Of a stretch of DNA of 64,000 nt, positions 2,096-15,197 are shown in pieces. A program made the translations under genes and the position numbers. A model generated the notes under the pieces. That model did not search any database. It was not told where the DNA came from and saw only the letters and a list, made by a program, of their open reading frames with translations. Position 1 is the stretch's first letter. Each line of letters begins with the position of its first letter. This stretch comes from a virus (Duplodnaviria; Heunggongvirae; Uroviricota; Caudoviricetes): IMG/VR virus record IMGVR_UViG_2541047712_000002; one strand, written 5' to 3'.

Positions 2096-5000
2096 TTGAA
2101 CATGGAACAGTTCAAGAAGAAAAAGCTACCGCTGTTTATTGCCGGTGCGGGTGGTAAAAAAAGCAGCAAAAGCTCCAGCCGTACACCGGTTGAAGCCGAC
2201 GATACCGTAAATTCTCGTGCAATGGCCGCTATCCTCGATCTTCTTGGGGAAGGGGTAATTGGCGGCTTAGTAAATGGCGCAAGATCTATTTTTATCGACG
2301 ATCTGCCGATTGTAAATGAAGACGGTTCCTCAAACTTCAGCGGAATCACATGGGATTTTCGCGACGGTTCGCAAGACCAGACTCCAATGTCTGGCTTTGA
2401 TTTCGTTGAAACGCCTAAATCCGTCAATATCCAGTTAAAAAAAACACATTATGTAACGGTTTCAATCGATAACGATGAAGCTGATCGGGTTCGTGTCATC
2501 ATGAAGTTTCCTTCTTTGCGAAGCATAGATAAAAAAACTGGTGACACGAACGGTACAACCGTTGAGTACAAGTTCCAGATAGCAAATGGCGACTCAACAT
2601 TTGTAGATGTGGTCGCAGAAGGTGAAAAAAGCGTTGGCATTAAGCTAACTGCAAAGAAGACAGGTGTTTATTACCGTAGCTATGAGCTGAAGCTGCCTAA
2701 GCCTGGACGCGCGTACAAGGTTCGTGTAGTCCGTATTACCGATGATAACAGCAGCCAGTATCTCTATAACGATACATGGGTGGACTCAATAGGTGAGATT
2801 GTAGATACACCGATGAACTACCCAAACTCTGTGCTGGTGGGTCTGAAGGTTAATTCTGAGCAATTTGGTAGCACCATGCCATCTCGTTCGTATTTGGTGC
2901 GTGGATTAAAAATTCGCGTGCCGTCAAACTACAACGAGGCCAGCAACACTTATGATGGTGTATGGGATGGCACTTTTAAGCTGTTGTCTTCATCCAATCC
3001 AGCCTGGATTCTTTTCGACCTGTTAACGAATGAACGATATGGGCTTGGCCAATTTGTATCAGAGTCCATGATTGACCTCGGCCAGCTGTACCAGATCGGT
3101 CGATATTGTGACGAAGAGGTTGATGATGGCTTTGGTGGCAAAGAGAAACGTTTTGCAATCAATACGCAGATTACCAGTCGACAGGACGCATACCGACTAA
3201 TTCAGGATATTGCTGGAGCATTCCGCGGCATGGTGTTTTGGGCTGGTGGGATGGTTAACATCATGCAGGATAGCCCATCAGATCCGGTAATGATGTTTAC
3301 CAACTCTAACGTCAAAGATGGATTGTTTACCTATAAAGGTTCTGCGCGTAAAGATCGCCCATCCGTTGCGCTCGTAACCTACAACAACAAGGAGGACGGT
3401 TATAAGCAAAACATCGAGTACGTTGAAGATCAGGACGCAATGCGCCGTTATGGTGAGCGTAAGACAGAAGTCGTAGCATTTGGCTGTACAAGCCGAGGGC
3501 AGGCTCACCGAGTTGGTTTGTGGCTTTTATATACCGCCAGAATGGAGTCGGATGTAATTACATTTACTGCCGGCTTAGATGCGTCATTCCTGATGCCTGG
3601 TGAAACCGTTCTGATTCAGAACAAATATCGCGCAGGAAAGCGCAACTCCGGTCGAATTGTGGAGTTTACCAAAAACAGCATCACACTCGATGCGCCTGTG
3701 TCATTAGCTAAAAGCGGCAGCTTTATTCGGATATTGAATCAGGAAGGCAAAATCGTTGAACGCGATGTTCTTGAAACTGGCGAAAACATAACAAAGGTTA
3801 CGTTTTCAAAAGCCCTGTCGTCAGCGGAAACGCCTGTTTTGAACGGTGTCTGGACAATTACAGAACCAGATCTCGAACCTATGCGCGTTCGCATCGTTAA
3901 CATCGCGCAGGGGGAAACGCCGGGTAGCTTTGACATCACCGCTGTTGAGAACAATCCGTCTAAATATGAGGCAATCGACAATGGTGCAACGCTGATCCCG
4001 CAGAATACGACGGTATTGGACCCAACTTACTCCAAGCCATCTAATCTGCAAATCACTGAAGGGACTTATCTCTCAAGCCCGGGCAACCTGTCAGTAAAAC
4101 TGACTGCAACATGGGAAGGGAAATCTCCAGAGTATTGGATCAGTTGGCGACGTTCTGATGAAAACAATGTATCGAACTGGCAATCGGCGCGTGTAACCGA
4201 AGAGCAATACGAAATCGTTAATGTCGCGGAGAATGGACGCTACGACTTCCAGCTGTATGCGGTTTCATTCAACGGTAAAAAAACAGAGATTATCAGTACC
4301 GTTTATCAGGTGTTGGGCACAATGACACCGCCGGATTCCCCAACGTCATTAACGGCCGTTGGAGACTATCGTAATGTGATACTGAATTGGGTTAATCCAG
4401 ATTCGGTAGACCTTGATCACATTAATGTTTACGCATCCCAGACCAACAATCTGGATACAGCGAAACTGATCGCAGAGTCTGCAAGCACCACCTTTACACA
4501 TGCTGGTCTTGGGGATAGCGAAACGTGGTATTACTGGGTTCGAGCGTCGAACAAGCGAGGTATGTTAAGTCCTCCGAACTCAAACTTGGGGACAGAGGCG
4601 ACAACTCGCGATGTACTGTCGTTCCTGACAGGCAAAATTACGTCTTCTGAACTTGGCCAAGGTTTACTTGAGGAAATCGACTCAAAAGTATCTCAGGAGG
4701 CGGTGGATTCCATCTATGAACAGATGGATGAAAGTCTGAAAAGCCTTGATGACAAGTTTACAGAGACAGATCGGCGGCTTGAAGAAGCTCAAAACGATCT
4801 TAAAACGGATGTTTCCAGTACTGTAAGCAAGGTGGAAGACGCTCTTAAGGAAGTTGAAAACTCTAACGCTGCTTTAATTCAGTTGCAGGAAACTGTATCA
4901 GAGCAGGGCAAAGCTGTAGCTGGAGCTGTTGAGGCGGCAAATGCAGCACTTGACAATTCATCGGCTTTAATCGCGGAGGAACGTGAAGCACGAGTTGAGG

Positions 5001-6262
5001 GTGACTTGGCAAACGCGAAAGAAATCGAGGCGATGAAGTCAACTGTAGATAGCAGTTTAGCCACCATTGAAGAAATGAAAAAAACCGTGGCTGAAGTTGA
5101 GCGTTCCAGTGCCGAAGTGACAACAAACATTGAAGCATTGGCTAAAACAAACATCGATCTTGCTTTGCGTCAGGATGAAGATCAGCACAAGCAGATGGTG
5201 AGTAATGCGAAGATCACCACAACTCAGAAGGCTTTTGCAGACGATATGTCTGCAATGGCTACGAAAATGGAAGAAATTCGCGCTGAAATAAATGAGGATA
5301 TCAGAGCTTCAATCACTGAAGAAACAACGGCTCGTGTAGATGCTGATAATGCTATTGCAAGCAGAATCACCAAACTTGAATCAAAGATTAACGATGATAT
5401 TTCTGCCGCAATTGTGAGTGAACAAGAGGCACGAGCTAGTGCCGATGAAGCACTTTCAAAAGAAATACTATCGTTACAAGCCAAAATTGAAGGCGATATT
5501 AGTGCAGCTATATCTGAAGAAAAAATTGCCCGAGCAACTGCTGATGAATCTTTAGCACAACAGATAACCACATTGAAGAGCCAGACGGGTAAAGATATTA
5601 AGGCGGCTGTAGCAGAAGAGACGAAAGCCAGAACTGACGCTGATTCGGCTTTGGCTTCTAGTATCACTAATCTACAGGCGCAAACGAGCAAAGATATTAA
5701 TGCCGCGATTACGTCTGAGGCGACTGTGCGCACAAACGCCGACAATGCTCTAAGTGGACGAATTGACACCTTAAAAGCATCAGTTGATGGAAATACAGCG
5801 ACAATTCAAGAGCAGGCAACTGCTATTGCTGATACTAACAAAAAGGTTTCAACCGCGTGGACGTTGAAGATGGAAACGTCAACAAGTGGTGGGCAAAAAT
5901 ATGTCGCAGGTATTGCGCTTGGAATTGACACCACGGGGCTTTCCCAGTTTTTGGTGCAAGCAGATCGATTTGGTCTAGTCAACTCAGTTAACGGAAAGAT
6001 CACCACACCATTTGTTATCGAAAACAGCGTTGCATACATGAATGGTGCGTATATTAAGGATGGTACTATCACAAATGCAAAGGTAGGTGACTTGCAATCA
6101 ACAAACTTCGTAAGCGGACGAGCCGGATGGCGATTTGGTAAAAATGGAACGCTTGAGATCAACGGCAATAGTGGCGGCAATGGGAGATTGGTTATAAATG
6201 GTCAGAGGATTGACGTTTATGATGACAATAATGTCCTTCGAGTGAGGATTGGTCAGCTTTGA
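2096..6262 (+). CDS. central tail fiber / host specificity protein J-like
   Basis: 1388-aa ORF immediately after L-K-I genes; N-terminal region typical of gpJ family; C-terminal third is fibrous with five tandem 33-aa repeats. Confidence 0.7.
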   Translation: MNMEQFKKKKLPLFIAGAGGKKSSKSSSRTPVEADDTVNSRAMAAILDLLGEGVIGGLVNGARSIFIDDLPIVNEDGSSNFSGITWDFRDGSQDQTPMSGFDFVETPKSVNIQLKKTHYVTVSIDNDEADRVRVIMKFPSLRSIDKKTGDTNGTTVEYKFQIANGDSTFVDVVAEGEKSVGIKLTAKKTGVYYRSYELKLPKPGRAYKVRVVRITDDNSSQYLYNDTWVDSIGEIVDTPMNYPNSVLVGLKVNSEQFGSTMPSRSYLVRGLKIRVPSNYNEASNTYDGVWDGTFKLLSSSNPAWILFDLLTNERYGLGQFVSESMIDLGQLYQIGRYCDEEVDDGFGGKEKRFAINTQITSRQDAYRLIQDIAGAFRGMVFWAGGMVNIMQDSPSDPVMMFTNSNVKDGLFTYKGSARKDRPSVALVTYNNKEDGYKQNIEYVEDQDAMRRYGERKTEVVAFGCTSRGQAHRVGLWLLYTARMESDVITFTAGLDASFLMPGETVLIQNKYRAGKRNSGRIVEFTKNSITLDAPVSLAKSGSFIRILNQEGKIVERDVLETGENITKVTFSKALSSAETPVLNGVWTITEPDLEPMRVRIVNIAQGETPGSFDITAVENNPSKYEAIDNGATLIPQNTTVLDPTYSKPSNLQITEGTYLSSPGNLSVKLTATWEGKSPEYWISWRRSDENNVSNWQSARVTEEQYEIVNVAENGRYDFQLYAVSFNGKKTEIISTVYQVLGTMTPPDSPTSLTAVGDYRNVILNWVNPDSVDLDHINVYASQTNNLDTAKLIAESASTTFTHAGLGDSETWYYWVRASNKRGMLSPPNSNLGTEATTRDVLSFLTGKITSSELGQGLLEEIDSKVSQEAVDSIYEQMDESLKSLDDKFTETDRRLEEAQNDLKTDVSSTVSKVEDALKEVENSNAALIQLQETVSEQGKAVAGAVEAANAALDNSSALIAEEREARVEGDLANAKEIEAMKSTVDSSLATIEEMKKTVAEVERSSAEVTTNIEALAKTNIDLALRQDEDQHKQMVSNAKITTTQKAFADDMSAMATKMEEIRAEINEDIRASITEETTARVDADNAIASRITKLESKINDDISAAIVSEQEARASADEALSKEILSLQAKIEGDISAAISEEKIARATADESLAQQITTLKSQTGKDIKAAVAEETKARTDADSALASSITNLQAQTSKDINAAITSEATVRTNADNALSGRIDTLKASVDGNTATIQEQATAIADTNKKVSTAWTLKMETSTSGGQKYVAGIALGIDTTGLSQFLVQADRFGLVNSVNGKITTPFVIENSVAYMNGAYIKDGTITNAKVGDLQSTNFVSGRAGWRFGKNGTLEINGNSGGNGRLVINGQRIDVYDDNNVLRVRIGQL
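5288..5782 (+). repeat. five tandem 99-nt (33-aa) coiled-coil repeats inside the J-like gene
   Basis: protein units INEDIRASITEETTARVDADNAIASRITKLESK / INDDISAAIVSEQEARASADEALSKEILSLQAK / IEGDISAAISEEKIARATADESLAQQITTLKSQ / TGKDIKAAVAEETKARTDADSALASSITNLQAQ / TSKDINAAITSEATVRTNADNALSGRIDTLKAS. Confidence 0.7.
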
Positions 6263-6355
6263 TTGTGGAAAAAAATAATCATTTCTGTAAAAATAGGTAG
6301 GTACTAACTTAATGGTGGGCATGGAACGCCCACCATATCTAGGAGCAAAGGATAA

Positions 6356-8743
6356 ATGTGGTACAGGGAAGGTACAATAAATCTCACTAAAGGAAATAAA
6401 ACTGTAGTGGGAACAGGCACAGCCTGGGGGGTGACGGCGAACGGCGTCCTTCCAGGTATGATATTGATTGGCCCCGATAATAAGTTATATGAAATAAAAT
6501 CAATCGAGAGTGACACTTCGTTAACTCTTGTTGAAGCCTACGGTGGTAGCACCCAAACAAATGTCCCGTGCAGAATAATTACGACCTATGAAGGTGATTT
6601 AACCCAATTTAGTGCTCGTTTTACTGCGCTTATGTCTCGCATGTCAGCCGATTCAAAAATGATGCGTAGTTGGTTGACTGCCGTGGATGAAATAACAATT
6701 GAGCGTGAAGATGGCACGGAATTAACCGTAAAATCCCTTACGCAGATCGTTAATGAGCACAATGAGAACCTAGAATGGTATAAAGAAAATACTCCCATAA
6801 TTAACACCGCTGCACAAAAAGCTAAAGAGGCGGCAGCGAGCGCAACAGCGGCCAAAAAATCAGAAACTAACTCAAAAGCGAGTGAGACAGCTTCAAAGAC
6901 TAGCGAAACTAATGCGAAAAATAGCGAGGTAGCTGCAAAATCGAGTCAGAGTGCTGCCGCAAACTCCGCTACCGCAGCAAAAAACAGCCAGGATGCAGCA
7001 GCCGAAAGCGAGAGTGCTGCAGCTGGTTCTGCGACTTCAGCAGCTGGATCAGCAACTGCTGCGGCTAACAGCCAGAAAGCCGCGAAGACGAGCGAAACTA
7101 ACGCAAAGTCCAGCCAGACGGCAGCGAAGACCAGCGAAACAAATGCCAAAGCCAGCGAAACTGCGGCGAAAAACAGTCAGGATGCAGCAGCCCAAAGCGA
7201 GAGTGCCGCAGCTGGTTCTGCAAGTGCGGCGGCTTCTTCTGCCTCTGCATCAGCCAACAGTCAAAAAGCTGCAAAAACCAGTGAAACCAACGCAAAGGCG
7301 AGCGAGACTGAGGCGGCTAACTCAGCGAAAGCATCGGCAGCAAGCCAGACGGCTGCAAAAGCAAGTGAAGACGCAGCCAGAGAGTATGCAAGCCAGGCTG
7401 CGGAGCCGTATAAACAAGTTTTGCAGCCGCTTCCCGATGTGTGGATACCGTTTAACGATTCACTGGATATGATTACGGGCTTTTCGCCGTCATATAAAAA
7501 GATTGTTATTGGTGATGATGAAATAACGATGCCTGGCGATAAGGTTGTAAAGTTTAAACGCGCATCAACTGCCACATATATCAATAAATCAGGCGTATTT
7601 AGTGTTGCTAAAATTGATGAGCCACGATTTGAAAAAGAAGGTTTATTGATTGAAGGACAGCGCACTAACTATTTTGTTAAATCCAATATCCCCGCTGAAT
7701 GGACGAGTACCAGCAATATCGATAAAACTAATAATGGTGTTGATGAATTTGGTTTTTCATATGCCAAAATGCGAACAAAAGATAATATGACAGGACAATC
7801 ATCTGCACTTAGTCTGCATACATGCAGTGCATCCCGGGGGATTGATGTTAGTGGCGATAATAAGTATTGCACTGTTTCATGCAGGGTTAAAGCTCCTGAT
7901 GGTCTTCGTTGTCGTTTGCGTTTTGAAAAATACGATGGGTCGGTTTATACATTTTTAGGAGATGCTTATTTAACTTTCGGAACTCTGATAATAGAAAAAA
8001 CTGGCGGAGCAGCCAATAGAATAGCAGCTACTGCAACTAAAGATCCGGTTACAGGGTGGATTTTCTATGAGGCAACTATAGAAGCTGTTGAAGGTGAAAC
8101 CTTAATTGGCGCAATGATTCAGTATGCGCCGAAAAAAGGTGGTGTAACTGAAGCGGGAGATTATATTTACCTTGCAACACCACAATTTGAAAACGGCGGA
8201 TGTGCTTCATCTTTTGTTATTACGACAACTGTACCCGCAACCCGCTCCAGTGATATGGTGACGATCCCAACTGAAAATAATATCTATAATAGACCGCTTA
8301 CGTGCCTGGTCGAGGTTAATAGAAATTGGGGCGATATTCCTCCTAATGTAGCACCGCGTATTTTTGATTTTTCTGGTGTGCCACCTATTGAGTCAATTAC
8401 ATACGCTTTTAACACAACTGAGAAATATTACGGTCAGCTTTATATGCAAACTTATAAAGCGTCGACAAGTACTTACGTTTCTAGTGTGTTTGCTGGTCGA
8501 ACTGATGTTCGAAAATTCATTGGTGGTTTTAATATTTATTCTGATGGTACTAAACGAGTAGTTTCTAACGGTGAGGCTACTAAAACCATGAAAACGGAGT
8601 GGACGGGCGTAAAAACACGGACCTTTATTCGAATTGGAGGTCAAGCCACATCGGGAACTCGTCATCTATTCGGCCATTTGAGAAATCTTCGTCTCTGGCA
8701 TAAAGAATTAACTGATGCGCAAATGGGGGAGAGTATTAAATGA
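6356..8743 (+). CDS. tail fiber protein with internal Ala/Ser/Thr-rich repeat region
   Basis: 795-aa ORF downstream of J-like gene; central low-complexity duplicated module (AAKNSQDAAAESESAAAGSA...ANSQKAAKTSETNAK...); globular C-terminal half. Confidence 0.5.
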   Translation: MWYREGTINLTKGNKTVVGTGTAWGVTANGVLPGMILIGPDNKLYEIKSIESDTSLTLVEAYGGSTQTNVPCRIITTYEGDLTQFSARFTALMSRMSADSKMMRSWLTAVDEITIEREDGTELTVKSLTQIVNEHNENLEWYKENTPIINTAAQKAKEAAASATAAKKSETNSKASETASKTSETNAKNSEVAAKSSQSAAANSATAAKNSQDAAAESESAAAGSATSAAGSATAAANSQKAAKTSETNAKSSQTAAKTSETNAKASETAAKNSQDAAAQSESAAAGSASAAASSASASANSQKAAKTSETNAKASETEAANSAKASAASQTAAKASEDAAREYASQAAEPYKQVLQPLPDVWIPFNDSLDMITGFSPSYKKIVIGDDEITMPGDKVVKFKRASTATYINKSGVFSVAKIDEPRFEKEGLLIEGQRTNYFVKSNIPAEWTSTSNIDKTNNGVDEFGFSYAKMRTKDNMTGQSSALSLHTCSASRGIDVSGDNKYCTVSCRVKAPDGLRCRLRFEKYDGSVYTFLGDAYLTFGTLIIEKTGGAANRIAATATKDPVTGWIFYEATIEAVEGETLIGAMIQYAPKKGGVTEAGDYIYLATPQFENGGCASSFVITTTVPATRSSDMVTIPTENNIYNRPLTCLVEVNRNWGDIPPNVAPRIFDFSGVPPIESITYAFNTTEKYYGQLYMQTYKASTSTYVSSVFAGRTDVRKFIGGFNIYSDGTKRVVSNGEATKTMKTEWTGVKTRTFIRIGGQATSGTRHLFGHLRNLRLWHKELTDAQMGESIK
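6814..7390 (+). repeat. duplicated ~180-nt Ala/Ser/Thr-rich module inside tail fiber gene
   Basis: two near-identical copies of ...AAKNSQDAAA(E/Q)SESAAAGSA...SANSQKAAKTSETNAK(S/A)S(Q/E)TAAK... in the translation; the out-of-frame Arg-rich ORF 6951..7472 is a by-product. Confidence 0.6.
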
Positions 8744-9021
8744 AAGATTTAACGCTCAAATTTGCAGACAGGGCCGACTTTTCGGCCTTTATGGAGAGTA
8801 TTGGCTATTATGATGACGAGTCGATGCAGGATGATATTCTTATCGACGTGATAGGTAACGTGTACAAAGAAACCGGAGAACTGACTGAAGATGGCGAACC
8901 GGTATGTGTTAAGGAGGACGGATATTTTGTAAACGTGCGCATCATTAATGATGCAAAAAAATCGTCAATATTCGATAAATACGCGATTGTTGTTGAGCAT
9001 CAACTTCGTGGCTGGATGTGA
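8740..9021 (+). CDS. hypothetical protein (possibly tail fiber-associated)
   Basis: 93-aa ORF, start overlaps stop of the upstream fiber gene (translational coupling); no recognisable motif. Confidence 0.3.
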   Translation: MKDLTLKFADRADFSAFMESIGYYDDESMQDDILIDVIGNVYKETGELTEDGEPVCVKEDGYFVNVRIINDAKKSSIFDKYAIVVEHQLRGWM

Positions 9022-9030
9022 GGGAGACAA

Positions 9031-9735
9031 ATGGCTACATCGACAGTAATTCCAGGAGACATCACCACGTTAAAGGGAGATGTCAGTAAAGCCAAGGAAG
9101 ATATTTCCTCAATTAACGGAAAAGTATCAACGCTTCAGACTGATATGACCAGTGCAAAGCAGGATATCAGCACCAGATACACAAAAACTGAAGTTGATAA
9201 TAAGCTGAAAAACAAAGTGGAAGTGAACGATCTGGAAAGTGGTCGTTATGGTGGAGATTTTTACCCGCTGACTGGTCGTGAAGCGTTTTATTTGTGGGGA
9301 TTGGGCACGACTACAGCGGCGGCAAACCTTTATCTTAATCCTGACCCCGCAATTTCGTCTGTACTGCGGTCCACATCGTCTATCCGCTATAAACATTCAG
9401 TAGAGACGATAGATTCGGAGCACGCCGATCTCATTTTCAAGATGCGCCCTGTGTGGTACAGGTCGCAATGCGAAAATGACAGGCGCGATTGGGGATTCTA
9501 TGGATTGATTGCCGAGGAAGTAGGAGAAATTGCCCCTCAGTTTGTTCACTGGCGAGCAGCTAACGAGAATGATGCTCCTGAAGCTATTTCCAGCAATGGC
9601 CTTGTTGCCGAAGGTGTAATGTACGAACGTCTGGTTGTTCCACTGATTCACCATATCCAGAAGCTGACTGAAAGAGTTGATGAACTTGAGTCAGAATTAA
9701 AGTTGTTATTAACTTCCCGAAGCGATATCGGATAA
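9031..9735 (+). CDS. putative tail fiber-associated protein
   Basis: 234-aa ORF with RBS (gagggagacaa ATG); coiled-coil-like N-terminus; C-terminal region loosely resembles intramolecular chaperone domains of phage fibers (not verified). Confidence 0.3.
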   Translation: MATSTVIPGDITTLKGDVSKAKEDISSINGKVSTLQTDMTSAKQDISTRYTKTEVDNKLKNKVEVNDLESGRYGGDFYPLTGREAFYLWGLGTTTAAANLYLNPDPAISSVLRSTSSIRYKHSVETIDSEHADLIFKMRPVWYRSQCENDRRDWGFYGLIAEEVGEIAPQFVHWRAANENDAPEAISSNGLVAEGVMYERLVVPLIHHIQKLTERVDELESELKLLLTSRSDIG

Positions 9736-9745
9736 AGGAGGAATA

Positions 9746-10030
9746 ATGGATATAACACCTTTCCTTCATGCACTTTGTGCTGTGGCTGCGCAGGTACTGG
9801 TTGGTCTTTTTACCGGAAACTGGGCTTACGGGGCGATAGCCGGTTGTACGTTCTTCATTGCTCGTGAACATACCCAGGCAGAATATCGCTGGATTGAAAT
9901 GTTCGGGCATGGCAAGCGAATGAATATGCCGTGGTGGGGCGGTTTTGATCCGCGCGCGTGGGATGTAGCAAGTCTGATGGATTTTGCGATTCCACTTTTA
10001 GCGTGCACATTATTATATATTTTTATTTAA
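9746..10030 (+). CDS. small membrane protein
   Basis: 94-aa ORF with RBS (aaggagg) and hydrophobic segments at both ends. Confidence 0.35.
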   Translation: MDITPFLHALCAVAAQVLVGLFTGNWAYGAIAGCTFFIAREHTQAEYRWIEMFGHGKRMNMPWWGGFDPRAWDVASLMDFAIPLLACTLLYIFI

Positions 10031-10199
10031 TATAAGATTAACTGAGATATAGCTTACGCAAAGAAGGTAATAAATATAAAGAGAGATGTTCTGAGGTAAT
10101 TTATTGTTGGTGTTTAAGGTTATTTACAGATAGGTAAGTGCATACCTATATAAAAAAGATAAAATGTGATATAAATCCGCCATCCCGATTTGACTTTTC

Positions 10200-10535
10200 A
10201 TGGAGGAAAATATGTCGAACGAGATGGCGGGCGTAACAACAGAGCAAGTTGAGCGCATTGCCGCGATCGTTGCTCGGGAGGTTGTCGGCAAATTAGGTAA
10301 AGAGCTACGTGAAGAAATTGGCCAGGAGGTCAACGATCAGCTGAAAACCTACTTTGGTGATATGACCCCGGCGCAACATAGTATTCAACACTCCAACCTG
10401 GACAAACTCCTTAACCGGTTAGATTCCATCTCCAGTGGGTTCTTTGGCGGCATTGTTTCTAAAATAACGTCGTTCATTATTACCGCACTGCTTTTGGGGT
10501 TAGCCGCGTATGGCGTGAAAAATGGACTGCAATAA
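10200..10535 (+). CDS. putative holin-like membrane protein
   Basis: 111-aa ORF with RBS (ggaggaaaat ATG); single C-terminal transmembrane segment (ITSFIITALLLGLAAYGV); directly upstream of lysis-like genes. Confidence 0.3.
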   Translation: MEENMSNEMAGVTTEQVERIAAIVAREVVGKLGKELREEIGQEVNDQLKTYFGDMTPAQHSIQHSNLDKLLNRLDSISSGFFGGIVSKITSFIITALLLGLAAYGVKNGLQ

Positions 10536-11241
10536 CAGGAGATCAAGGATGAAGACTCCGAGAGGCATTCGTAACAATAACCCCGGTAATCTTGATAAAG
10601 GATCGCCGTGGCAAGGTCTGGTTGCTAATCCAGACGAACCCCGCTTTTGCACGTTTAAAGACCCTGTTTGGGGGATTCGTGCGCTGGCGGTGACTCTAAT
10701 TACCTACCACGACAAACGTCGCGCAAAAGACGGCTCAAGTATCGATACCATTCGTGAAGTTATTGAACGCTGGGCACCGCCGAACGAAAATAACACTGAC
10801 GCCTATATTAATGAGGTGTCCAAAGCAGTTGGTGTAACCGCAGACATGATTATCGATCTGCATGATTACGACATCCTTCGACCTTTAGTTGAGGCAATCA
10901 TTCGCCACGAGAATGGCCGAGGCCCGCTAAAAACGCTGAACACCTGGTATGCGGCAGAAGTTATTGAGGAAGGTCTGCGTCGAGCTGGCGTCGTTAAGCC
11001 GGTGAAAACGGTGAAGGCTGTTCCTGTAACGAAAGAAACCGCAGGCGCAACTGTTACAGCAGGTATTGGTCTGGCGCAGCTTGCCGATGTTATGCCGCAG
11101 ATTTCCGCTGCTATGGATAAAGCACAAGGTCATATCTCTAGCGGGGATACAGTACGCATCATCTTCGGTATTGCCACTATTGTTGTGGCAGGATTCATTG
11201 CCTGGTCGCAGGTAAGAAAACACCAGAAAGGGATGGTCTAA
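10522..11241 (+). CDS. putative cell-wall hydrolase / lysis protein with C-terminal membrane anchor
   Basis: 239-aa ORF with RNNNPGNL motif and C-terminal hydrophobic segment (IIFGIATIVVAGFIAWSQV); enzymatic class not determinable by eye. Confidence 0.3.
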   Translation: MDCNNRRSRMKTPRGIRNNNPGNLDKGSPWQGLVANPDEPRFCTFKDPVWGIRALAVTLITYHDKRRAKDGSSIDTIREVIERWAPPNENNTDAYINEVSKAVGVTADMIIDLHDYDILRPLVEAIIRHENGRGPLKTLNTWYAAEVIEEGLRRAGVVKPVKTVKAVPVTKETAGATVTAGIGLAQLADVMPQISAAMDKAQGHISSGDTVRIIFGIATIVVAGFIAWSQVRKHQKGMV

Positions 11242-11242
11242 T

Positions 11243-11494
11243 ATGCTAGGCAGCCTGATGACAAAGCTAAAAGTTGCTTTGATTATGCTGGCTGCCGTTC
11301 TTTTCGTTCTTGTCGGCGCTTACACGATGGGCGGAAATGCGGCGCGACGAGCAATGGAAGAGAAGGCAAAACAGGAAGACAGAAAACGACTTCAAAACAC
11401 AGTGAAAGTGGTGAATGAGACGAGCAGTAAAATACGTCAGAAAGATGCTTCTGCCGTTCATCGTGAGTTGTATGATAAGTGGGTGCGTCATTAA
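11243..11494 (+). CDS. i-spanin (Rz-like)
   Basis: 83-aa ORF: N-terminal TM helix (LIMLAAVLFVLVGAY) followed by charged coiled-coil region; an overlapping lipoprotein ORF lies in another frame. Confidence 0.45.
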   Translation: MLGSLMTKLKVALIMLAAVLFVLVGAYTMGGNAARRAMEEKAKQEDRKRLQNTVKVVNETSSKIRQKDASAVHRELYDKWVRH

Positions 11495-11630
11495 ACCACA
11501 AACAGCCAGCGTGTTGTTCTGCGATGGGGCTGAGCCTATCTATATCAGCAATAATGATGTAATGACTGAAGAAACCGAACGCCAAATCCTTTTTCACAAT
11601 ACGATGGGAGAGAGGGTTTGTGGTTGGTGA
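11415..11630 (+). CDS. o-spanin (Rz1-like lipoprotein), overlapping the Rz-like gene
   Basis: 71-aa ORF with signal peptide and lipobox (LLPFIVSCMISGC), starts inside the Rz-like gene in a different frame and extends beyond it. Confidence 0.4.
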   Translation: MRRAVKYVRKMLLPFIVSCMISGCVIKPQTASVLFCDGAEPIYISNNDVMTEETERQILFHNTMGERVCGW

Positions 11631-11662
11631 TGTCGAAGTTCCCCTCAAATGAGGGGAACACA

Positions 11663-12184
11663 TTATTCTTCGAACAATTTTTCGATAGATTTTGTAGGAT
11701 AGAACAAAGAACGCTCGTTGTTACCAACCAGCTGGATAAAGCCTAAACTTTTATAAAACGCCTTGGCTTTGTCATTTAACGCCTCAACGAAAAGTCCATG
11801 AATGCCTACAGCAAGAGATGCATTGTACACAACGCGCATTGCATGTGTTACAAGCATTGAGCCAAATCCTTGACCTTGAAGGGACTTGTCCAAAGCCAGC
11901 CTACCCAAAGTAACACTTGGAACATTCCGATAAGGAACCTTCTTTTGTTTGCTTCTTGAAGGTAAGGACTCCTTTTCAAAACAACTACCTGACAAAGTGT
12001 AATATCCTAACACTTTTGGCCTTTCTTCTTGAGTGCAAAGCACATAAGCACGAAGAATTTTTCCCTCATGCTGCCTTTTTAAGTGGTTGGCTAAAAAGGC
12101 GTTTAGTGACTCTTCGCCGCAATCAAAACCGTTTAGATCATAATCTTTCTCTCCAGAGAAAATCTCTATCGTTGTATTGCTCAC
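11663..12184 (-). CDS. GNAT-family acetyltransferase toxin (TacT/AtaT-like)
   Basis: 173-aa minus-strand ORF with acetyl-CoA binding motif (QGQGFGSMLV) directly downstream of a DUF1778-like small gene, the arrangement of tRNA-acetylating type II toxin-antitoxin pairs. Confidence 0.55.
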   Translation of the reverse strand: MSNTTIEIFSGEKDYDLNGFDCGEESLNAFLANHLKRQHEGKILRAYVLCTQEERPKVLGYYTLSGSCFEKESLPSRSKQKKVPYRNVPSVTLGRLALDKSLQGQGFGSMLVTHAMRVVYNASLAVGIHGLFVEALNDKAKAFYKSLGFIQLVGNNERSLFYPTKSIEKLFEE

Positions 12185-12191
12185 GAGTAAA

Positions 12192-12461
12192 CTACTCCAT
12201 GCTTTTCAGACGATCAGCAGCTCGTTTCAGCTTGTCGTTCGGTGCCGGAGGATTGCTTATAGCGTCCATAACCAGATTCCAGGATTCTTCATTCAGAACT
12301 AGTCTACGGTGTTGCTCTATAACTTTCACGGCACGTTCAGATGCACTGCTAACCATAAACTGAGTAATGCTCTGGTTAGACATTGCGGCAGCTTCCTCGA
12401 TGATGCTTTTATCGTCATCGGTTAATCTCAAATCGATGCGCTGCTTTTTTAGTGCTGACAT
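12192..12461 (-). CDS. DUF1778-type antitoxin (TacA-like), upstream partner of GNAT toxin
   Basis: minus-strand ORF; probable start at internal Met (MSALKKQRIDLRLTDDDK...) preceded by strong SD (caggaggaatac ATG); 8-bp gap to GNAT gene. Confidence 0.5.
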   Translation of the reverse strand: MSALKKQRIDLRLTDDDKSIIEEAAAMSNQSITQFMVSSASERAVKVIEQHRRLVLNEESWNLVMDAISNPPAPNDKLKRAADRLKSME

Positions 12462-12779
12462 GTATTCCTCCTGATGGCCGTGATGTAGGAAGGCCATCAA
12501 TCTCCTCTGTTCAAACTGAGTTTTCGACTCAAAAATTACTTTAAAAGGCTATAGCCCATTACGTGTGCATTATCAAATTGTGTACGGCATATCACCGTAC
12601 TTGTAATATAGAGGTCATTGTTACTTTTTTCAACAGACAAATACAAGCTATGATTGCCAATTGTTAACCACAACCTACCATTTAACCTTTACACCGCAGC
12701 CGTAGGCATTTAGGCTATATCACATATAAGAAAACAAGTTGTTTCAGACGATAATTATATACGCAAAGGGAACTCTCCA

Positions 12780-13448
12780 ATGACCAAGATCTTTGTGGTT
12801 GGCGGCACAAAGGGCGGGCCTGGCAAATCCACCGTTGCCCAGCAAATTGCCGTTTGCCTGAAAGTCAAAAAGAAGAAGAAGGTTTATATTACCGATATAG
12901 ATATTCAGCGCACGACAACGAGCTGGTGTGAAGACCGTCGACAGAACGAAGACCTTGAGCTGATTCCTTTTGCATACGTTCAGGATGACATCATTAAGCA
13001 CCTAAAATCGCTTCAGGGTAGAGCTGAGTTTGTAGTGGTAGATGCTGGTGGCTTCGACTCCGAAATTCAGCGACAAGCGATGCTGATGGCTGACGTTATC
13101 ATTATCCCGCTGCGTCCTAAGCGTCGTGATTTGAAATCTTTACGTGACATCGATCCTATTATCGACAATGTTCGCAATGTAAACGATAAAGTGAAGGTCC
13201 GCGCGGTCATGAACCAGTGCCCGGCTTTGCCATCACAAGTGTCTCGCATTCTGGCGGCTAAAGAGATTGTTGAGACGTTTGGAATCGAGTCTGCGCCAGT
13301 CAATCTATATAACCGCAACGTCTATGATGATGCGGAAGAGTCTGGTCGTTCTATCTTTGAAATGACCGGTAGCGAGCGCGACAAAAAGGCGGAAGCCGAG
13401 TTTGAAGAATTTGTAGATTATCTGTTGAGTCTGGAGGAAGAAGAATAA
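12780..13448 (+). CDS. parA: ParA-type partition ATPase
   Basis: 222-aa ORF with deviant Walker A (GGTKGGPGKST); followed by overlapping small gene. Confidence 0.6.
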   Translation: MTKIFVVGGTKGGPGKSTVAQQIAVCLKVKKKKKVYITDIDIQRTTTSWCEDRRQNEDLELIPFAYVQDDIIKHLKSLQGRAEFVVVDAGGFDSEIQRQAMLMADVIIIPLRPKRRDLKSLRDIDPIIDNVRNVNDKVKVRAVMNQCPALPSQVSRILAAKEIVETFGIESAPVNLYNRNVYDDAEESGRSIFEMTGSERDKKAEAEFEEFVDYLLSLEEEE

Positions 13449-13807
13449 TGTCCATGAAAATGGGTGACCTAGCAAAGCGCAAAGAGCCTGATGCACCGGC
13501 TAAGAACACAACTCCTTTGCGCCAACCAGTCAGACCACAAGGACGCCCGACTCGTGGCAAAGAGAAAATTAAAAGCCGCACTATGTCACTGGAAGACGAA
13601 TACTTCGAGCTTCTGGAAATGATGAAGTTTATCCCTCGTTTCGAGAAGTTCACCCGCTCTGATGTGATTCGTGCTGCTATTTTCCATCTGGCAGAGAAGT
13701 CACCGCAGGAAATCGAGGACATCGTAAAGCTGAACGAGGCGATCACAGCTGCCGATGTCACGATGCGTACCGATGAAATTAAACGCGAGTTGATGAAGAA
13801 AGGTTAA
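13448..13807 (+). CDS. small partition-associated DNA-binding protein (ParB/ParG-like, putative)
   Basis: 119-aa basic ORF whose start overlaps parA stop (ATAATG); identity as centromere-binding protein is by position only. Confidence 0.35.
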   Translation: MSMKMGDLAKRKEPDAPAKNTTPLRQPVRPQGRPTRGKEKIKSRTMSLEDEYFELLEMMKFIPRFEKFTRSDVIRAAIFHLAEKSPQEIEDIVKLNEAITAADVTMRTDEIKRELMKKG

Positions 13808-13849
13808 TAATGTGGGCTGTCTAGCCCACATTATTTTAATTAAAGTGGA

Positions 13850-14611
13850 GTGATAATTATGCATTCGTTAGTATTTGCATTTAAAAACATACTCAAGAAT
13901 GTTATAAACATACTAGGGATGTTAAATATTTTTTTGTCTGTGAGGGTGAGGAGAAAAGATATAAAAGATAAATTAAAGGAACTTAACAAAGAAAAAGAAC
14001 AATTAAAAAGCGAAGAAATTATTATTGATTTATACAAGAAAAAACTCGCATCTAGCAAGGGGAAAGCTAATGATAAAATCAAAGGAAAAATAATTCACTA
14101 TATTATTGCTAGAGAGTTGGGGAATGATCCTGATAATGAAGATTTGCGACATAATCTTTTTACAAAGATAAAAGAATCAGAAGAACAGGTTGAAGTTCTG
14201 GTTCATCAAAGAGAAGTAAGTGAGCAGGCGAACAAAAAAGAAACGGTTGTCAATTTGTTTTTATTGTATGAAAAAAATAAATTGTTTAAAGCTAAGGGGT
14301 TGGCTGTGTTTCTTATAGTTATAAACTTAATTATAGTTGCGACTCTCGATCTTCCAGCTTGGTCATTGATTATAAGTTTTTTTATTCTCTCTTTGATTAT
14401 GTTGAAAGATCAGATACTTACTATTCGTGTCTCTAAAGGATATTTTGGCACAAGTGCGTATGAAGCGGTTCAATTGCTTAAATTCATCAGAGAAAATTCA
14501 GACAAATTTGACTCAGATGATAATGACGGTAGCCCACGACGGATATTGAATCCGAAGGGAACAACAAAAAAATCAGACAACCTATTCGATAAAGGGTGGC
14601 AAAATGTTTGA
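13850..14611 (+). CDS. hypothetical membrane protein (AT-rich accessory gene)
   Basis: 253-aa Lys-rich ORF with two hydrophobic segments in a markedly AT-rich block. Confidence 0.3.
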   Translation: MIIMHSLVFAFKNILKNVINILGMLNIFLSVRVRRKDIKDKLKELNKEKEQLKSEEIIIDLYKKKLASSKGKANDKIKGKIIHYIIARELGNDPDNEDLRHNLFTKIKESEEQVEVLVHQREVSEQANKKETVVNLFLLYEKNKLFKAKGLAVFLIVINLIIVATLDLPAWSLIISFFILSLIMLKDQILTIRVSKGYFGTSAYEAVQLLKFIRENSDKFDSDDNDGSPRRILNPKGTTKKSDNLFDKGWQNV

Positions 14612-15026
14612 CCTTGACGCCATCACTAAGTTCTTAAATCAGTGTTTTGATCTACTTTTGCTCAAGCAGCCTTTAAGAACTGTTTTCGGAATACTGATTG
14701 GTTTCATTATTTTTGTTTTTGTTTACACGTTTAGGTTTGCGATAGCTCAAGATTTTTATGAAATAGATGGTGTGCATTACGCTGCATGTTTCGTCATCGG
14801 TGTTTTAGTTGTTCACACAAGAACATTTTTTGACGTTATCAAGGGCACCGCAGTTGATGAAGAAATAGATAGTATGATCAGAGTTATTACGAAGCAGCCA
14901 CACCTATCTAACCATCAAAAAAACATAATGATTGCTGAAATACTTCAAAAAGAAATTGCAGCCATAAGTCAAAAGAGATTGGATAAAGTTGCACAAGAAA
15001 TAACGGAGAAAAAGACAACTGATTAA
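14604..15026 (+). CDS. hypothetical membrane protein (AT-rich accessory gene)
   Basis: 140-aa ORF overlapping the previous gene stop; two transmembrane segments. Confidence 0.3.
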   Translation: MFDLDAITKFLNQCFDLLLLKQPLRTVFGILIGFIIFVFVYTFRFAIAQDFYEIDGVHYAACFVIGVLVVHTRTFFDVIKGTAVDEEIDSMIRVITKQPHLSNHQKNIMIAEILQKEIAAISQKRLDKVAQEITEKKTTD

Positions 15027-15197
15027 TTTAATTACCTGTTTCTGTATATAAATAATAAGTAACTTATTAAATATATATACGGAAGCAGGTCTTTTAAAAG
15101 ACACCCACCAGAACAACTCCCTTCCGTTTCCACTTCCAAAAACTGCCACCAGTCGCTATCATCCGCTCATTGTGATAAGTAAGTAACTACCTACCAG

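What the first reader, a model, noticed from the sequence alone, without database searches (positions are those of the whole stretch)
11663..12461. GNAT toxin with DUF1778-type antitoxin (TacAT/AtaRT-like type II TA) adjacent to the partition locus
On the minus strand, a 90-aa ribbon-helix-helix-like antitoxin with a strong SD is followed 8 bp later by a 173-aa GNAT acetyltransferase (QGQGFGSMLV). This pairing is characteristic of aminoacyl-tRNA-acetylating toxins. Its position beside parA suggests a post-segregational killing role; such modules can also act in phage defence.
Basis: partly seen in the sequence, partly recalled or inferred. Interest (0 to 1): 0.45.

Follow-up and report, generated by a model that had tools for sequence, protein, structure and literature searches.

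The report
Known AtaRT-type toxin-antitoxin on phage-plasmid
This is an intact two-gene poison-and-antidote module of the well-studied AtaRT/KacAT family, sitting between the lysis genes and the partition genes of an SSU5-like E. coli phage-plasmid; it is real but already annotated and published, so it is ordinary.

Summary
On the minus strand, an 89-aa TacA/DUF1778 ribbon-helix-helix antitoxin (12461..12192) is followed 7 nt later by a 173-aa GNAT acetyltransferase (12184..11663, GTG start).

The toxin is about 70% identical, without gaps, to E. coli AtaT. The antitoxin is 76% identical to AtaR and 80% to KacA. All of these have solved structures. The catalytic Tyr144, the acetyl-CoA Gly108, most tRNA-contact residues and the DNA-reading residues R8/D10/R12 are conserved.

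A promoter (TTGAAA-17-TATATT) is followed 4 nt later by the palindrome GTACGG-N7-CCGTAC. This palindrome occurs once in the window. The same half-sites precede chromosomal ataRT and three other plasmid alleles.

The window is a mosaic relative of phage-plasmid Cyrano/pLF82. There, this locus is already annotated "KacT acetyltransferase-type toxin / putative antitoxin" and was reported as transcribed in the lysogen (Misson 2023).

The module occupies a swap slot (about 11623-12672) that holds other cargo in other SSU5-like elements. The aminoacyl-tRNA-acetylating mechanism is well supported by homology. Post-segregational killing is a plausible but untested inference. I found no evidence for phage defence.

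Novelty: already known. Interest: low.

The parts
11638..11659 (.). Perfect 10+10 nt GC-rich hairpin (GTTCCCCTCA aa TGAGGGGAAC) between the Rz1 stop (11630, + strand) and the toxin stop (11663, - strand). It is a likely shared terminator for the two convergent units. It lies just inside the left edge of the swapped module.
   Evidence: terminator-like on the + strand; 100% complementary arms. A role as terminator on the - strand is inferred only; there is no T-run on that side.
11663..12184 (-). GNAT toxin gene, 173 aa, GTG start. AtaT/KacT-type aminoacyl-tRNA N-acetyltransferase.
   Evidence: Pfam Acetyltransf_1/7/10 above cut-off. PDB AtaT chains E~1e-79, KacT E~4e-75, other GNAT toxins no better than 1e-21. 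69.8% ungapped identity to AtaT, with Y144, G108, Y85, R95, K79/K81/K82, K165, H34, R37, F30, L27 and L136 conserved. dN/dS 0.065 against a 90%-nt allele.
12185..12191 (-). 7-nt intercistronic spacer (TTTACTC). A weak GGAG lies 10 nt upstream of the GTG, inside the end of the antitoxin gene. This fits translational coupling and a low toxin:antitoxin translation ratio.
   Evidence: Read directly from the sequence. The GTG start is conserved in alleles L009 and L004. Coupling itself is inferred.
12192..12461 (-). Antitoxin gene, 89 aa. N-terminal ribbon-helix-helix DNA-binding part and C-terminal toxin-binding part (TacA1/DUF1778).
   Evidence: PF08681 E=5.7e-26. PDB KacA E=6.6e-42, AtaR E=1.3e-40. 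80.5% identity to KacA and 76.1% to AtaR, with R8/D10/R12 conserved; of four KacA residues (M65, I68, Q70, R77) whose substitution abolished neutralisation, two are identical (M65, I68) and two are changed to N70 and K77, the same residues as in AtaR. dN/dS 0.039.
12467..12472 (-). Shine-Dalgarno AGGAGG, 5 nt upstream of the antitoxin ATG.
   Evidence: Read directly from the sequence.
12462..12581 (-). About 120-nt transcribed leader between the operator and the antitoxin start. It contains small hairpins (12472-12499, and one around 12508-12528). No special fold was detected.
   Evidence: RNA fold z-score 0.0 against shuffles. The leader is 26 nt in chromosomal ataRT, 112-121 nt in two other plasmid alleles and 180 nt in the Enterobacter allele.
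12582..12600 (.). Predicted operator: palindrome GTACGG-N7-CCGTAC, starting 4 nt after the -10 hexamer and covering the expected transcription start.
   Evidence: Single match in the 64-kb window, 0.03 expected by chance. Identical half-sites sit at the same place relative to the promoter in chromosomal ataRT of O157:H7 and in three other plasmid alleles. The KacAT/AtaRT operators are described as palindromes spanning the transcription start (PMC6698736). Binding was not tested.
12605..12633 (-). Sigma-70-type promoter: -35 TTGAAA (12633-12628), 17-nt spacer, -10 TATATT (12610-12605).
   Evidence: 10 of 12 consensus match. The TTGAAA-N17-TATAnT-N4-palindrome layout is conserved in four plasmid-borne alleles. 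The near-identical Cyrano genes are transcribed 35- and 60-fold above local prophage background (PMC9928086).
11623..12672 (.). Extent of the exchangeable cargo module. It is a self-contained unit (terminator, toxin, antitoxin, leader, operator, promoter) between the conserved lysis cassette and the conserved parA upstream region of SSU5-like phage-plasmids.
   Evidence: In blastn against SSU5, pHCM2, and E. coli and Klebsiella relatives, homology breaks at 11612-11627 on the left and resumes at 12669-12679 on the right. Other elements carry different cargo in the slot.

Best explanation
This is a type II toxin-antitoxin operon of the AtaRT/KacAT group of GNAT/DUF1778 modules ('clade A' in PMC9177977), carried as accessory cargo by an SSU5-like phage-plasmid of E. 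coli.

Inferred from close homologues: the toxin dimer uses acetyl-CoA to acetylate the alpha-amino group of charged tRNAs. The likely targets are the relaxed set seen for AtaT and KacT: Gly-, Trp-, Tyr-, Phe- and initiator Met-tRNA. Acetylation makes these tRNAs unusable and stops translation. The antitoxin's C-terminal part wraps the toxin, blocks the acetyl-CoA site and prevents toxin dimerisation. Its N-terminal ribbon-helix-helix dimers read the GTACGG-N7-CCGTAC palindrome over the transcription start, so a toxin2:antitoxin4 complex represses the operon and excess toxin relieves repression (conditional cooperativity).

Shown here: the genes, motifs, promoter, operator and operon layout are intact, under purifying selection, and conserved with the characterised systems. 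Published RNA-seq shows that the near-identical Cyrano copy is transcribed in the lysogen.

Inferred role: if the antitoxin is the less stable partner, as in other type II systems, cells that lose the plasmid-state prophage would be arrested. The module would then act as an addiction (post-segregational killing) device alongside the adjacent partition genes.
For: - Domain models.
- Solved-structure matches: the toxin matches the 6GTS/6AJM chains at E~1e-79, and their sequence equals the RefSeq-annotated AtaT of L007. It matches KacT (5ZGN/5XUN) at E~1e-75. The antitoxin matches KacA at E=6.6e-42 and AtaR at E=1.3e-40.
- Residue map: Y144, G108, Y85, R95, K79/81/82, K165, H34, R37, F30, L27 and L136 are conserved; R8/D10/R12 are conserved (using the functional data quoted).
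- Promoter and operator.
- Purifying selection: dN/dS 0.04-0.07.
- Expression in the lysogen: PMC9928086 Table 1.
- Target range of clade A toxins and rescue by peptidyl-tRNA hydrolase: PMC9177977 and PMC7595197.
- Plasmid habit: 152 of 5426 complete E. coli genomes carry this allele, always on plasmids. 583 PLSDB plasmids carry a relative.
- Family precedent for plasmid maintenance: GmvAT on pINV (PMC6519299).
Against: - Nothing contradicts the identification as a toxin-antitoxin module.
- Five AtaT residues implicated in tRNA or substrate contact differ (A26S, R40E, N41G, R71K, K77R), so the exact tRNA target set may differ from AtaT.
- The maintenance role is weakened by redundancy. The element also has ParA plus a partner, a HicAB module in the close relative, and about 5 copies per cell in LF82 (PMC9928086).
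- Many SSU5-like elements, including SSU5 and pHCM2, lack the module altogether.
- One third of host genomes also carry chromosomal ataRT with the same operator half-sites and a 76%-identical antitoxin. If the chromosomal antitoxin cross-neutralises the plasmid toxin, it could blunt addiction.
Confidence: 0.85

Rival explanations
1. The module's main role is anti-phage defence. Infection by another phage would free the toxin, shut down translation and abort the infection, protecting the lysogen population and the resident phage-plasmid.
For: It is an autonomously transcribed accessory gene pair of a prophage. It sits in a slot where cargo is swapped between related elements, as defence genes often do. 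Other translation-targeting toxin-antitoxin systems do act in defence (general knowledge; see the reviews listed).
Against: Neither protein matches any of the 5027 PADLOC defence models. A full-text search for GNAT toxins together with phage defence or abortive infection returned no report of such a function. The alternative cargos in the slot also match no defence model.
Confidence: 0.08
2. The module mainly alters host physiology rather than maintaining the element. It might produce stress-triggered growth arrest and antibiotic tolerance, as reported for KacT, or acetylate a host or virulence protein, as claimed for AtaT and EspB.
For: KacT overproduction halts growth and induces antibiotic tolerance (PMC6698736 and PMC9431474). 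AtaT was reported to acetylate EspB Lys206 (PMC7957018, abstract). The closest described element comes from LF82, a strain known for survival in macrophages.
Against: No data link this copy to tolerance or virulence. The LF82 papers I read report only its transcription. This allele is found only on plasmids (152 of 152 places), which fits element-level selection better than host-level selection.
Confidence: 0.06
3. It is an ordinary, non-toxic acetyltransferase with a small transcription factor, and not a toxin-antitoxin pair at all.
For: GNAT is a very large superfamily. NCBIfam gives only sub-threshold hits to RimI-like and other acetyltransferases, and RefSeq labels the gene simply 'GNAT family N-acetyltransferase'.
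Against: The toxin has about 70% ungapped identity to AtaT, whose expression arrests E. coli growth, and every residue whose mutation abolishes AtaT toxicity is present. It is paired with a TacA1/DUF1778 protein 76-80% identical to proven antitoxins. The operator is shared with ataRT.
Confidence: 0.01

Closest known systems
AtaR-AtaT of E. coli O157:H7 (chromosomal, between panM and livJ; solved structures include 6GTS and 6AJM)
   Same: Same two-gene order and spacing (6-7 nt). The toxin is 69.8% identical and alignable without gaps, with the same residue numbering. The catalytic Y144, acetyl-CoA G108 and most tRNA-contact residues are identical. The antitoxin is 76% identical with the same R8/D10/R12. 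The operator half-sites GTACGG/CCGTAC and the 7-nt spacer length are identical.
   Different: This copy is carried on a phage-plasmid, not the chromosome. It has a GTG start and a 120-nt leader in place of 26 nt. Five contact residues differ (A26S, R40E, N41G, R71K, K77R). About 24% of the antitoxin and 30% of the toxin differ, so cross-neutralisation cannot be assumed.
KacA-KacT of Klebsiella pneumoniae (5ZGN complex with operator DNA; 5XUN)
   Same: The antitoxin is 80.5% identical and the toxin match is 255 bits. Conserved features are DNA-reading R8/D10/R12, toxin-contact M65 and I68, and the catalytic Tyr (KacT Y145 = Y144 here). The palindromic operator spans the transcription start.
   Different: KacAT is chromosomal. 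KacA Q70 and R77 are N70 and K77 here, as in AtaR. The name 'KacT' given to this gene in the Cyrano record is by similarity only; by score the toxin is slightly closer to AtaT.
TacAT (Salmonella), GmvAT (Shigella pINV) and other 'clade D' GNAT/DUF1778 modules
   Same: Same domain pair and general mechanism. GmvAT gives the family precedent for plasmid maintenance.
   Different: These are only distantly related: PDB matches to GNAT toxins outside the AtaT/KacT group are E=1e-21 or weaker, against about 1e-79 for AtaT. Clade D toxins are almost Gly-tRNA-specific, whereas clade A toxins have a relaxed target set (PMC9177977).
Phd-Doc of phage-plasmid P1 (functional analogue)
   Same: It is a type II toxin-antitoxin module carried by a prophage that lives as a plasmid. 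It is the classic addiction system of such an element and is also regulated by conditional cooperativity (PMC7969092 and PMC6698736).
   Different: The proteins and toxin chemistry are unrelated. Phd-Doc is a persistent gene of P1-like elements, whereas this module is optional cargo in SSU5-like elements.

Membership tests
GNAT/DUF1778 (TacA) type II toxin-antitoxin, AtaRT/KacAT group | Toxin has a GNAT fold with the acetyl-CoA-binding motif (Q/R-x-x-G-x-G/A) | tested here: met
   Pfam Acetyltransf_1, _7 and _10 above their cut-offs. QGQGFG at residues 103-108, and G108 (whose G108D change detoxifies AtaT) is present.
GNAT/DUF1778 (TacA) type II toxin-antitoxin, AtaRT/KacAT group | Catalytic tyrosine (AtaT Y144 / KacT Y145) | tested here: met
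   Y144 sits in ...KAFYKSLGF..., aligned without gaps to AtaT Y144.
GNAT/DUF1778 (TacA) type II toxin-antitoxin, AtaRT/KacAT group | Basic surface that binds the tRNA acceptor stem (AtaT H34, R37, R40, R71, S76-K79, K81, K82, Y85, R95, K165) | tested here: met
   Most of these residues are identical. K77R and R71K are conservative changes. R40E is not conservative, nor is N41G at another contact residue (residue roles from PMC7595197). The target range may therefore differ in detail.
GNAT/DUF1778 (TacA) type II toxin-antitoxin, AtaRT/KacAT group | Antitoxin of the TacA1/DUF1778 family with an N-terminal ribbon-helix-helix and a C-terminal toxin-binding segment | tested here: met
   PF08681 E=5.7e-26 over residues 8-86. 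Full-length matches to KacA and AtaR. R8/D10/R12 and M65/I68 conserved.
GNAT/DUF1778 (TacA) type II toxin-antitoxin, AtaRT/KacAT group | Operon layout: antitoxin first, toxin immediately downstream on the same strand | tested here: met
   7-nt gap, same strand, single upstream promoter.
GNAT/DUF1778 (TacA) type II toxin-antitoxin, AtaRT/KacAT group | Palindromic operator overlapping the promoter or transcription start | tested here: met
   GTACGG-N7-CCGTAC lies 4 nt after the -10 hexamer and is unique in the window. The same half-sites occur in ataRT and three other alleles. This is sequence evidence only; binding was not tested.
GNAT/DUF1778 (TacA) type II toxin-antitoxin, AtaRT/KacAT group | Close sequence relationship to characterised members rather than to other GNAT toxin clades | tested here: met
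   AtaT 269 bits and KacT 255 bits, against 81 bits or less for all other solved GNAT toxins.
GNAT/DUF1778 (TacA) type II toxin-antitoxin, AtaRT/KacAT group | Toxin expression arrests growth, and the cognate antitoxin neutralises it | not testable with these tools
   This needs an induction and rescue experiment. Only homology supports it.
GNAT/DUF1778 (TacA) type II toxin-antitoxin, AtaRT/KacAT group | N-acetylation of aminoacyl-tRNAs | not testable with these tools
   This needs LC-MS of aminoacyl-adenosine after induction, as in PMC7595197 and PMC9177977.
GNAT/DUF1778 (TacA) type II toxin-antitoxin, AtaRT/KacAT group | Toxin2:antitoxin4 heterohexamer | not tested
   No multimer modelling tool was available. 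It is expected from 70-80% identity to complexes 5ZGN and 6AJM.
Plasmid addiction (post-segregational killing) module | Carried on an extrachromosomal replicon | tested here: met
   The window is 96-99% identical in long blocks to phage-plasmid Cyrano/pLF82. All 152 occurrences in complete E. coli genomes are on plasmids.
Plasmid addiction (post-segregational killing) module | Antitoxin turns over faster than toxin, and loss of the replicon arrests or kills the cell | not testable with these tools
   This needs stability and plasmid-loss assays.
Catalogued anti-phage defence systems (PADLOC-DB 2.0) | Match to a model of a known or candidate defence protein | tested here: not met
   Neither toxin nor antitoxin matches any family at E<=0.01.

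The most novel reading that the evidence does not exclude
The most novel reading has two parts.

First, the module is one interchangeable allele at a recombination slot between the lysis cassette and parA of SSU5-like phage-plasmids. If so, the uncharacterised alternative cargos in that slot would be unrecognised addiction or defence systems. These are the phrog_2594 + phrog_3307 overlapping gene pair and the phrog_28020 single gene.

Second, the phage-plasmid copy has the same operator half-sites and DNA-reading residues as chromosomal ataRT, and it co-resides with ataRT in a third of its hosts. The two modules may therefore be wired together, through cross-repression or cross-neutralisation. 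That would give a natural system of addiction versus anti-addiction between a prophage and its host.
Probability: 0.2. Interest if true: 0.4.

Novelty: already known. Interest (0 to 1): 0.13.

Why it matters
It matters little as a discovery. The family is among the best-characterised toxin-antitoxin groups, and this locus is already labelled in the Cyrano record and in a 2023 paper.

Its modest value lies in three points:
- It documents a clade A GNAT module as optional cargo of a widespread group of E. coli phage-plasmids (152 of 5426 complete genomes).
- It defines the exact swap slot and its alternative, still-unknown cargos.
- It shows that the module shares operator half-sites with the chromosomal ataRT found in about 30% of E. 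coli, and coexists with it without avoidance. This makes cross-talk between a prophage-borne and a host-borne module directly testable.

Tried and rejected
- Longer antitoxin from the ATG at 12497 or the TTG at 12500 (101-102 aa, as in the Cyrano record): rejected. Homologues start at the 12461 position, and the upstream ATG is out of frame in allele L009.
- Structured regulatory leader RNA: rejected. The fold of 12598..12440 has z=0.0 against shuffles. Rfam gives only sub-threshold chance hits in 10500-14000.
- Known defence system: PADLOC gave no hits.
- NCBIfam gave no family-level call for the toxin, only sub-threshold RimI-like hits, so the naming rests on Pfam and PDB.
- Avoidance of hosts with chromosomal ataRT, as reported for same-clade modules in Klebsiella (PMC9431474): not seen. 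Co-occurrence is 50 of 152 genomes, against 29.9% elsewhere; odds ratio 1.15, p=0.42, not corrected for phylogeny.
- Tandem repeats or iterons in the toxin-antitoxin/parA intergenic region of the window: none found, although the Enterobacter allele has an array.
- RelE/ParE identity of the gene after parA: no support.
- I did not run the large protein-database searches or a structure prediction for the toxin. About 70% identity to crystal structures made them unnecessary.

Full report
**1. The observation**

The minus strand of 11663-12461 holds two adjacent ORFs, as described.
- The downstream ORF (12184..11663) starts with GTG, encodes 173 aa and contains QGQGFGSMLV at residues 103-112.
- The upstream ORF, read from the ATG at 12461 to the TAG at 12194-12192, encodes 89 aa.
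- AGGAGG lies 5 nt before that ATG.
- The gap between the two ORFs is 7 nt (TTTACTC), not 8.
- A weak GGAG lies 10 nt before the toxin's GTG.

The mechanical ORF list extends the antitoxin to a TTG at 12500, and the Cyrano record uses an ATG at 12497. Neither is the likely start. The solved homologues AtaR and KacA begin exactly at the 12461 position. In a 90%-identical allele (L009), the upstream ATG is out of frame.

**2. What the two proteins are**

The antitoxin matches Pfam PF08681 (TacA1, formerly DUF1778) at E=5.7e-26. The toxin passes the cut-offs of three GNAT models.

Against solved structures, the toxin matches chains 6GTS/6AJM/6AJN/7CHD at E~1e-79 and KacT (5ZGN, 5XUN) at E~1e-75. 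The next best GNAT toxins reach only 1e-21. The 6GTS sequence printed equals the RefSeq-annotated AtaT of E. coli O157:H7 that I fetched as L007.

The alignment to AtaT is ungapped over residues 1-172 with 69.8% identity, so AtaT numbering applies directly. The antitoxin is 80.5% identical to KacA and 76.1% to AtaR.

I mapped residues with published functional data (PMC7595197; PMC6698736):
- Conserved in the toxin: catalytic Y144, acetyl-CoA G108, Y85, R95, F30, L27, L136, H34, R37, S76, S78, K79, K81, K82, P84, K165.
- Changed in the toxin: A26S, R40E, N41G, R71K, K77R.
- In the antitoxin: the DNA-reading residues R8, D10 and R12 are identical. Of four KacA residues whose substitution abolished neutralisation (M65, I68, Q70, R77), M65 and I68 are kept, while Q70 and R77 are N70 and K77, as in AtaR.

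Both genes are under strong purifying selection. dN/dS against the 90%-nt allele is 0.065 for the toxin and 0.039 for the antitoxin.

**3. Regulatory anatomy**

The best promoter-like site in the region is on the correct strand and upstream of the operon: TTGAAA (12633-12628), a 17-nt spacer, then TATATT (12610-12605), a 10 of 12 match to consensus.

Four nucleotides downstream lies the palindrome GTACGGTGATATGCCGTAC (12600-12582). The pattern GTACGG-N7-CCGTAC occurs once in the 64-kb window, against 0.03 expected by chance.

The same half-sites, with the same 7-nt spacing and the same position relative to a promoter, precede four other loci:
- chromosomal ataRT of O157:H7;
- a 90% allele (L009);
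- a divergent Enterobacter phage-plasmid allele (L004);
- an allele on a RepB-type plasmid (L008).

This matches the published description of the KacAT and AtaRT operators as palindromes spanning the transcription start and bound by a toxin2:antitoxin4 complex under conditional cooperativity (PMC6698736).

The phage-plasmid copy has a 120-nt leader where ataRT has 26 nt. The leader shows no exceptional fold and no Rfam family. A perfect 10+10 hairpin at 11638-11659 separates the toxin stop from the convergent Rz1 stop.

**4. Where it sits**

The window is an SSU5-like phage-plasmid. The 1.35 kb around the finding is 99.9% identical to Escherichia phage Cyrano (pLF82 of E. coli LF82) and 100% identical to plasmid NZ_CP080149.1. 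Over the first 50 kb of the window, the sequence is a mosaic of 96-99% blocks with Cyrano.

The gene order is: tail fibre, holin, endolysin, Rz, Rz1 (ending at 11630), then the toxin-antitoxin module on the opposite strand, then parA (12780-13448) and a 119-aa partner.

**5. It is already described**

[quoted passage not shown] Misson et al. 2023 (PMC9928086) list them among autonomously expressed prophage genes. They are transcribed 35- and 60-fold above the local prophage background in LB, and the paper names the pair 'KacT-CYRAN27'. RefSeq annotates the same genes on many plasmids as 'GNAT family N-acetyltransferase' and 'DUF1778 domain-containing protein' or 'TacA family antitoxin'. I found no paper that tests this copy for toxicity, neutralisation, plasmid stability or defence.

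**6. The module is swappable cargo**

I compared the window with SSU5, pHCM2, and E. coli, Klebsiella and Enterobacter relatives. Homology runs through the lysis cassette to 11612-11627. It resumes at 12669-12679, just upstream of the module's promoter. The slot in between holds different cargo in different elements:
- this module, in about 139 PLSDB plasmids;
- a divergent GNAT/DUF1778 pair, 63-64% (toxin) and 87% (antitoxin) identical, in Enterobacter and Citrobacter elements;
- an overlapping two-gene cassette of unknown function (phrog_2594 + phrog_3307) in SSU5, Klebsiella and some E. coli elements;
- a single unknown 183-aa gene (phrog_28020) in pHCM2.

None of the alternatives matches Pfam or PADLOC.

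**7. Distribution and co-residence**

By tblastn, 583 PLSDB plasmids encode a relative of the toxin at E<=1e-30. Of these, 144 are at 90% identity or more (the phage-plasmid allele) and 423 are at 60-80%; about half of all 583 records are typed as conjugative. In catalogued phage genomes the toxin is rare: three SSU5-like records plus a few distant hits.

Among 5426 complete E. coli genomes:
- this allele is in 152 genomes, always on plasmids;
- chromosomal ataRT is in 1625, always on the chromosome;
- a concatenated query gives a union of 1727, so 50 genomes carry both.

That is 32.9% of allele-bearing genomes, against 29.9% of the rest: odds ratio 1.15, Fisher p=0.42, not corrected for phylogeny. 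So I see neither avoidance nor enrichment. This contrasts with the same-clade exclusion reported for Klebsiella GNAT modules (PMC9431474).

**8. How it most likely works**

[quoted passage not shown] They act mainly on elongation, and peptidyl-tRNA hydrolase counteracts them (PMC9177977; PMC7595197).

The antitoxin blocks acetyl-CoA binding and toxin dimerisation, and the complex represses its own promoter (PMC6698736).

These steps are inferred, not shown. What is shown is that every sequence element they need is present, conserved and transcribed.

The addiction role is a further inference. It rests on the plasmid lifestyle, on the family precedent of GmvAT on pINV (PMC6519299), and on the analogy with Phd-Doc of P1. 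Phage defence has no support.

**9. Verdict**

The locus is a member of a well-known family and is already annotated and published. The only mildly new points are the precise swap slot, the shared operator with chromosomal ataRT, and the free co-residence of the two modules.

Noticed in passing
window 13448-13807 (+): The 119-aa gene directly after parA is annotated 'RelE/ParE putative toxin' in phage Cyrano and is counted as a toxin in Misson 2023. I found no RelE/ParE signal in Pfam, PADLOC or PDB sequence searches. The only hit is a weak ribbon-helix-helix-like one (aCcr1, residues 54-79). A single-sequence AlphaFold model (pLDDT 67) shows a disordered basic N-terminus and three helices, with no beta-sheet core. 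Its position and pattern fit a small ParG-like centromere-binding partner of ParA rather than a toxin.
   Followed up: partly
L004 2306-2405 (Enterobacter hormaechei plasmid NZ_CP124123): The divergent GNAT/DUF1778 allele in the same slot has a tandem array (15-nt unit TTTTTCGATTTTCAG, 6.7 copies) inside its 180-nt leader, between the operator palindrome and the antitoxin start. The window has no such array. Its role is unknown; it could be a centromere for the adjacent parA or a leader control element.
   Followed up: partly
L003 1645-2765; L002 2797-3953; L006 2301-3427; L005 1484-2035: In other SSU5-like elements the slot holds alternative cargo: an overlapping two-gene cassette (phrog_2594 of about 127-140 aa, plus phrog_3307 of about 233-250 aa) or a single 183-aa gene (phrog_28020). 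None has a Pfam or PADLOC match. These are candidates for unrecognised addiction or defence functions.
   Followed up: partly
window 22898-23512: The tRNA cluster differs from Cyrano's. The window has tRNA-Asn(GTT), tRNA-Tyr(GTA) and tRNA-Ser(TGA), whereas Cyrano has Asn-Thr-Ser. AtaT, the toxin's closest solved homologue, acetylates Tyr-tRNA efficiently and Asn-tRNA weakly. [quoted passage not shown] Any link between the two is speculative.
   Followed up: partly
window about 23069-23199 (+): The 5' and 3' parts of Cyrano's tRNA-Thr are both present but are separated by about 50 extra nucleotides in the anticodon region. Neither ARAGORN nor Rfam calls a tRNA here. It is either an intron-bearing or a disrupted tRNA gene.
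   Followed up: partly
window 4678-10128, 13810-15031 and 22974-31398: These stretches do not match Cyrano at megablast level, while the rest of the first 50 kb is 96-99% identical. They cover the tail-fibre region, the genes just after the par locus, and an 8.4-kb block after the tRNAs. These are further mosaic or swap regions of the phage-plasmid.
   Followed up: no
L010 34585-35433 (Cyrano CYRAN_50/51). The window equivalent was not mapped; it lies beyond Cyrano-homologous blocks whose offset shifts along the window.: A second toxin-antitoxin pair (HicA/HicB) is annotated in the close relative and is also transcribed in the lysogen. The element therefore probably carries at least two such modules.
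   Followed up: no
window 12627-12681 (+) against 12605-12633 (-): Promoter-like sites on the + strand, facing parA, overlap or abut the toxin-antitoxin promoter on the - strand, at the right edge of the swapped module. Exchanging the cargo may therefore alter the sequence just upstream of parA.
   Followed up: no
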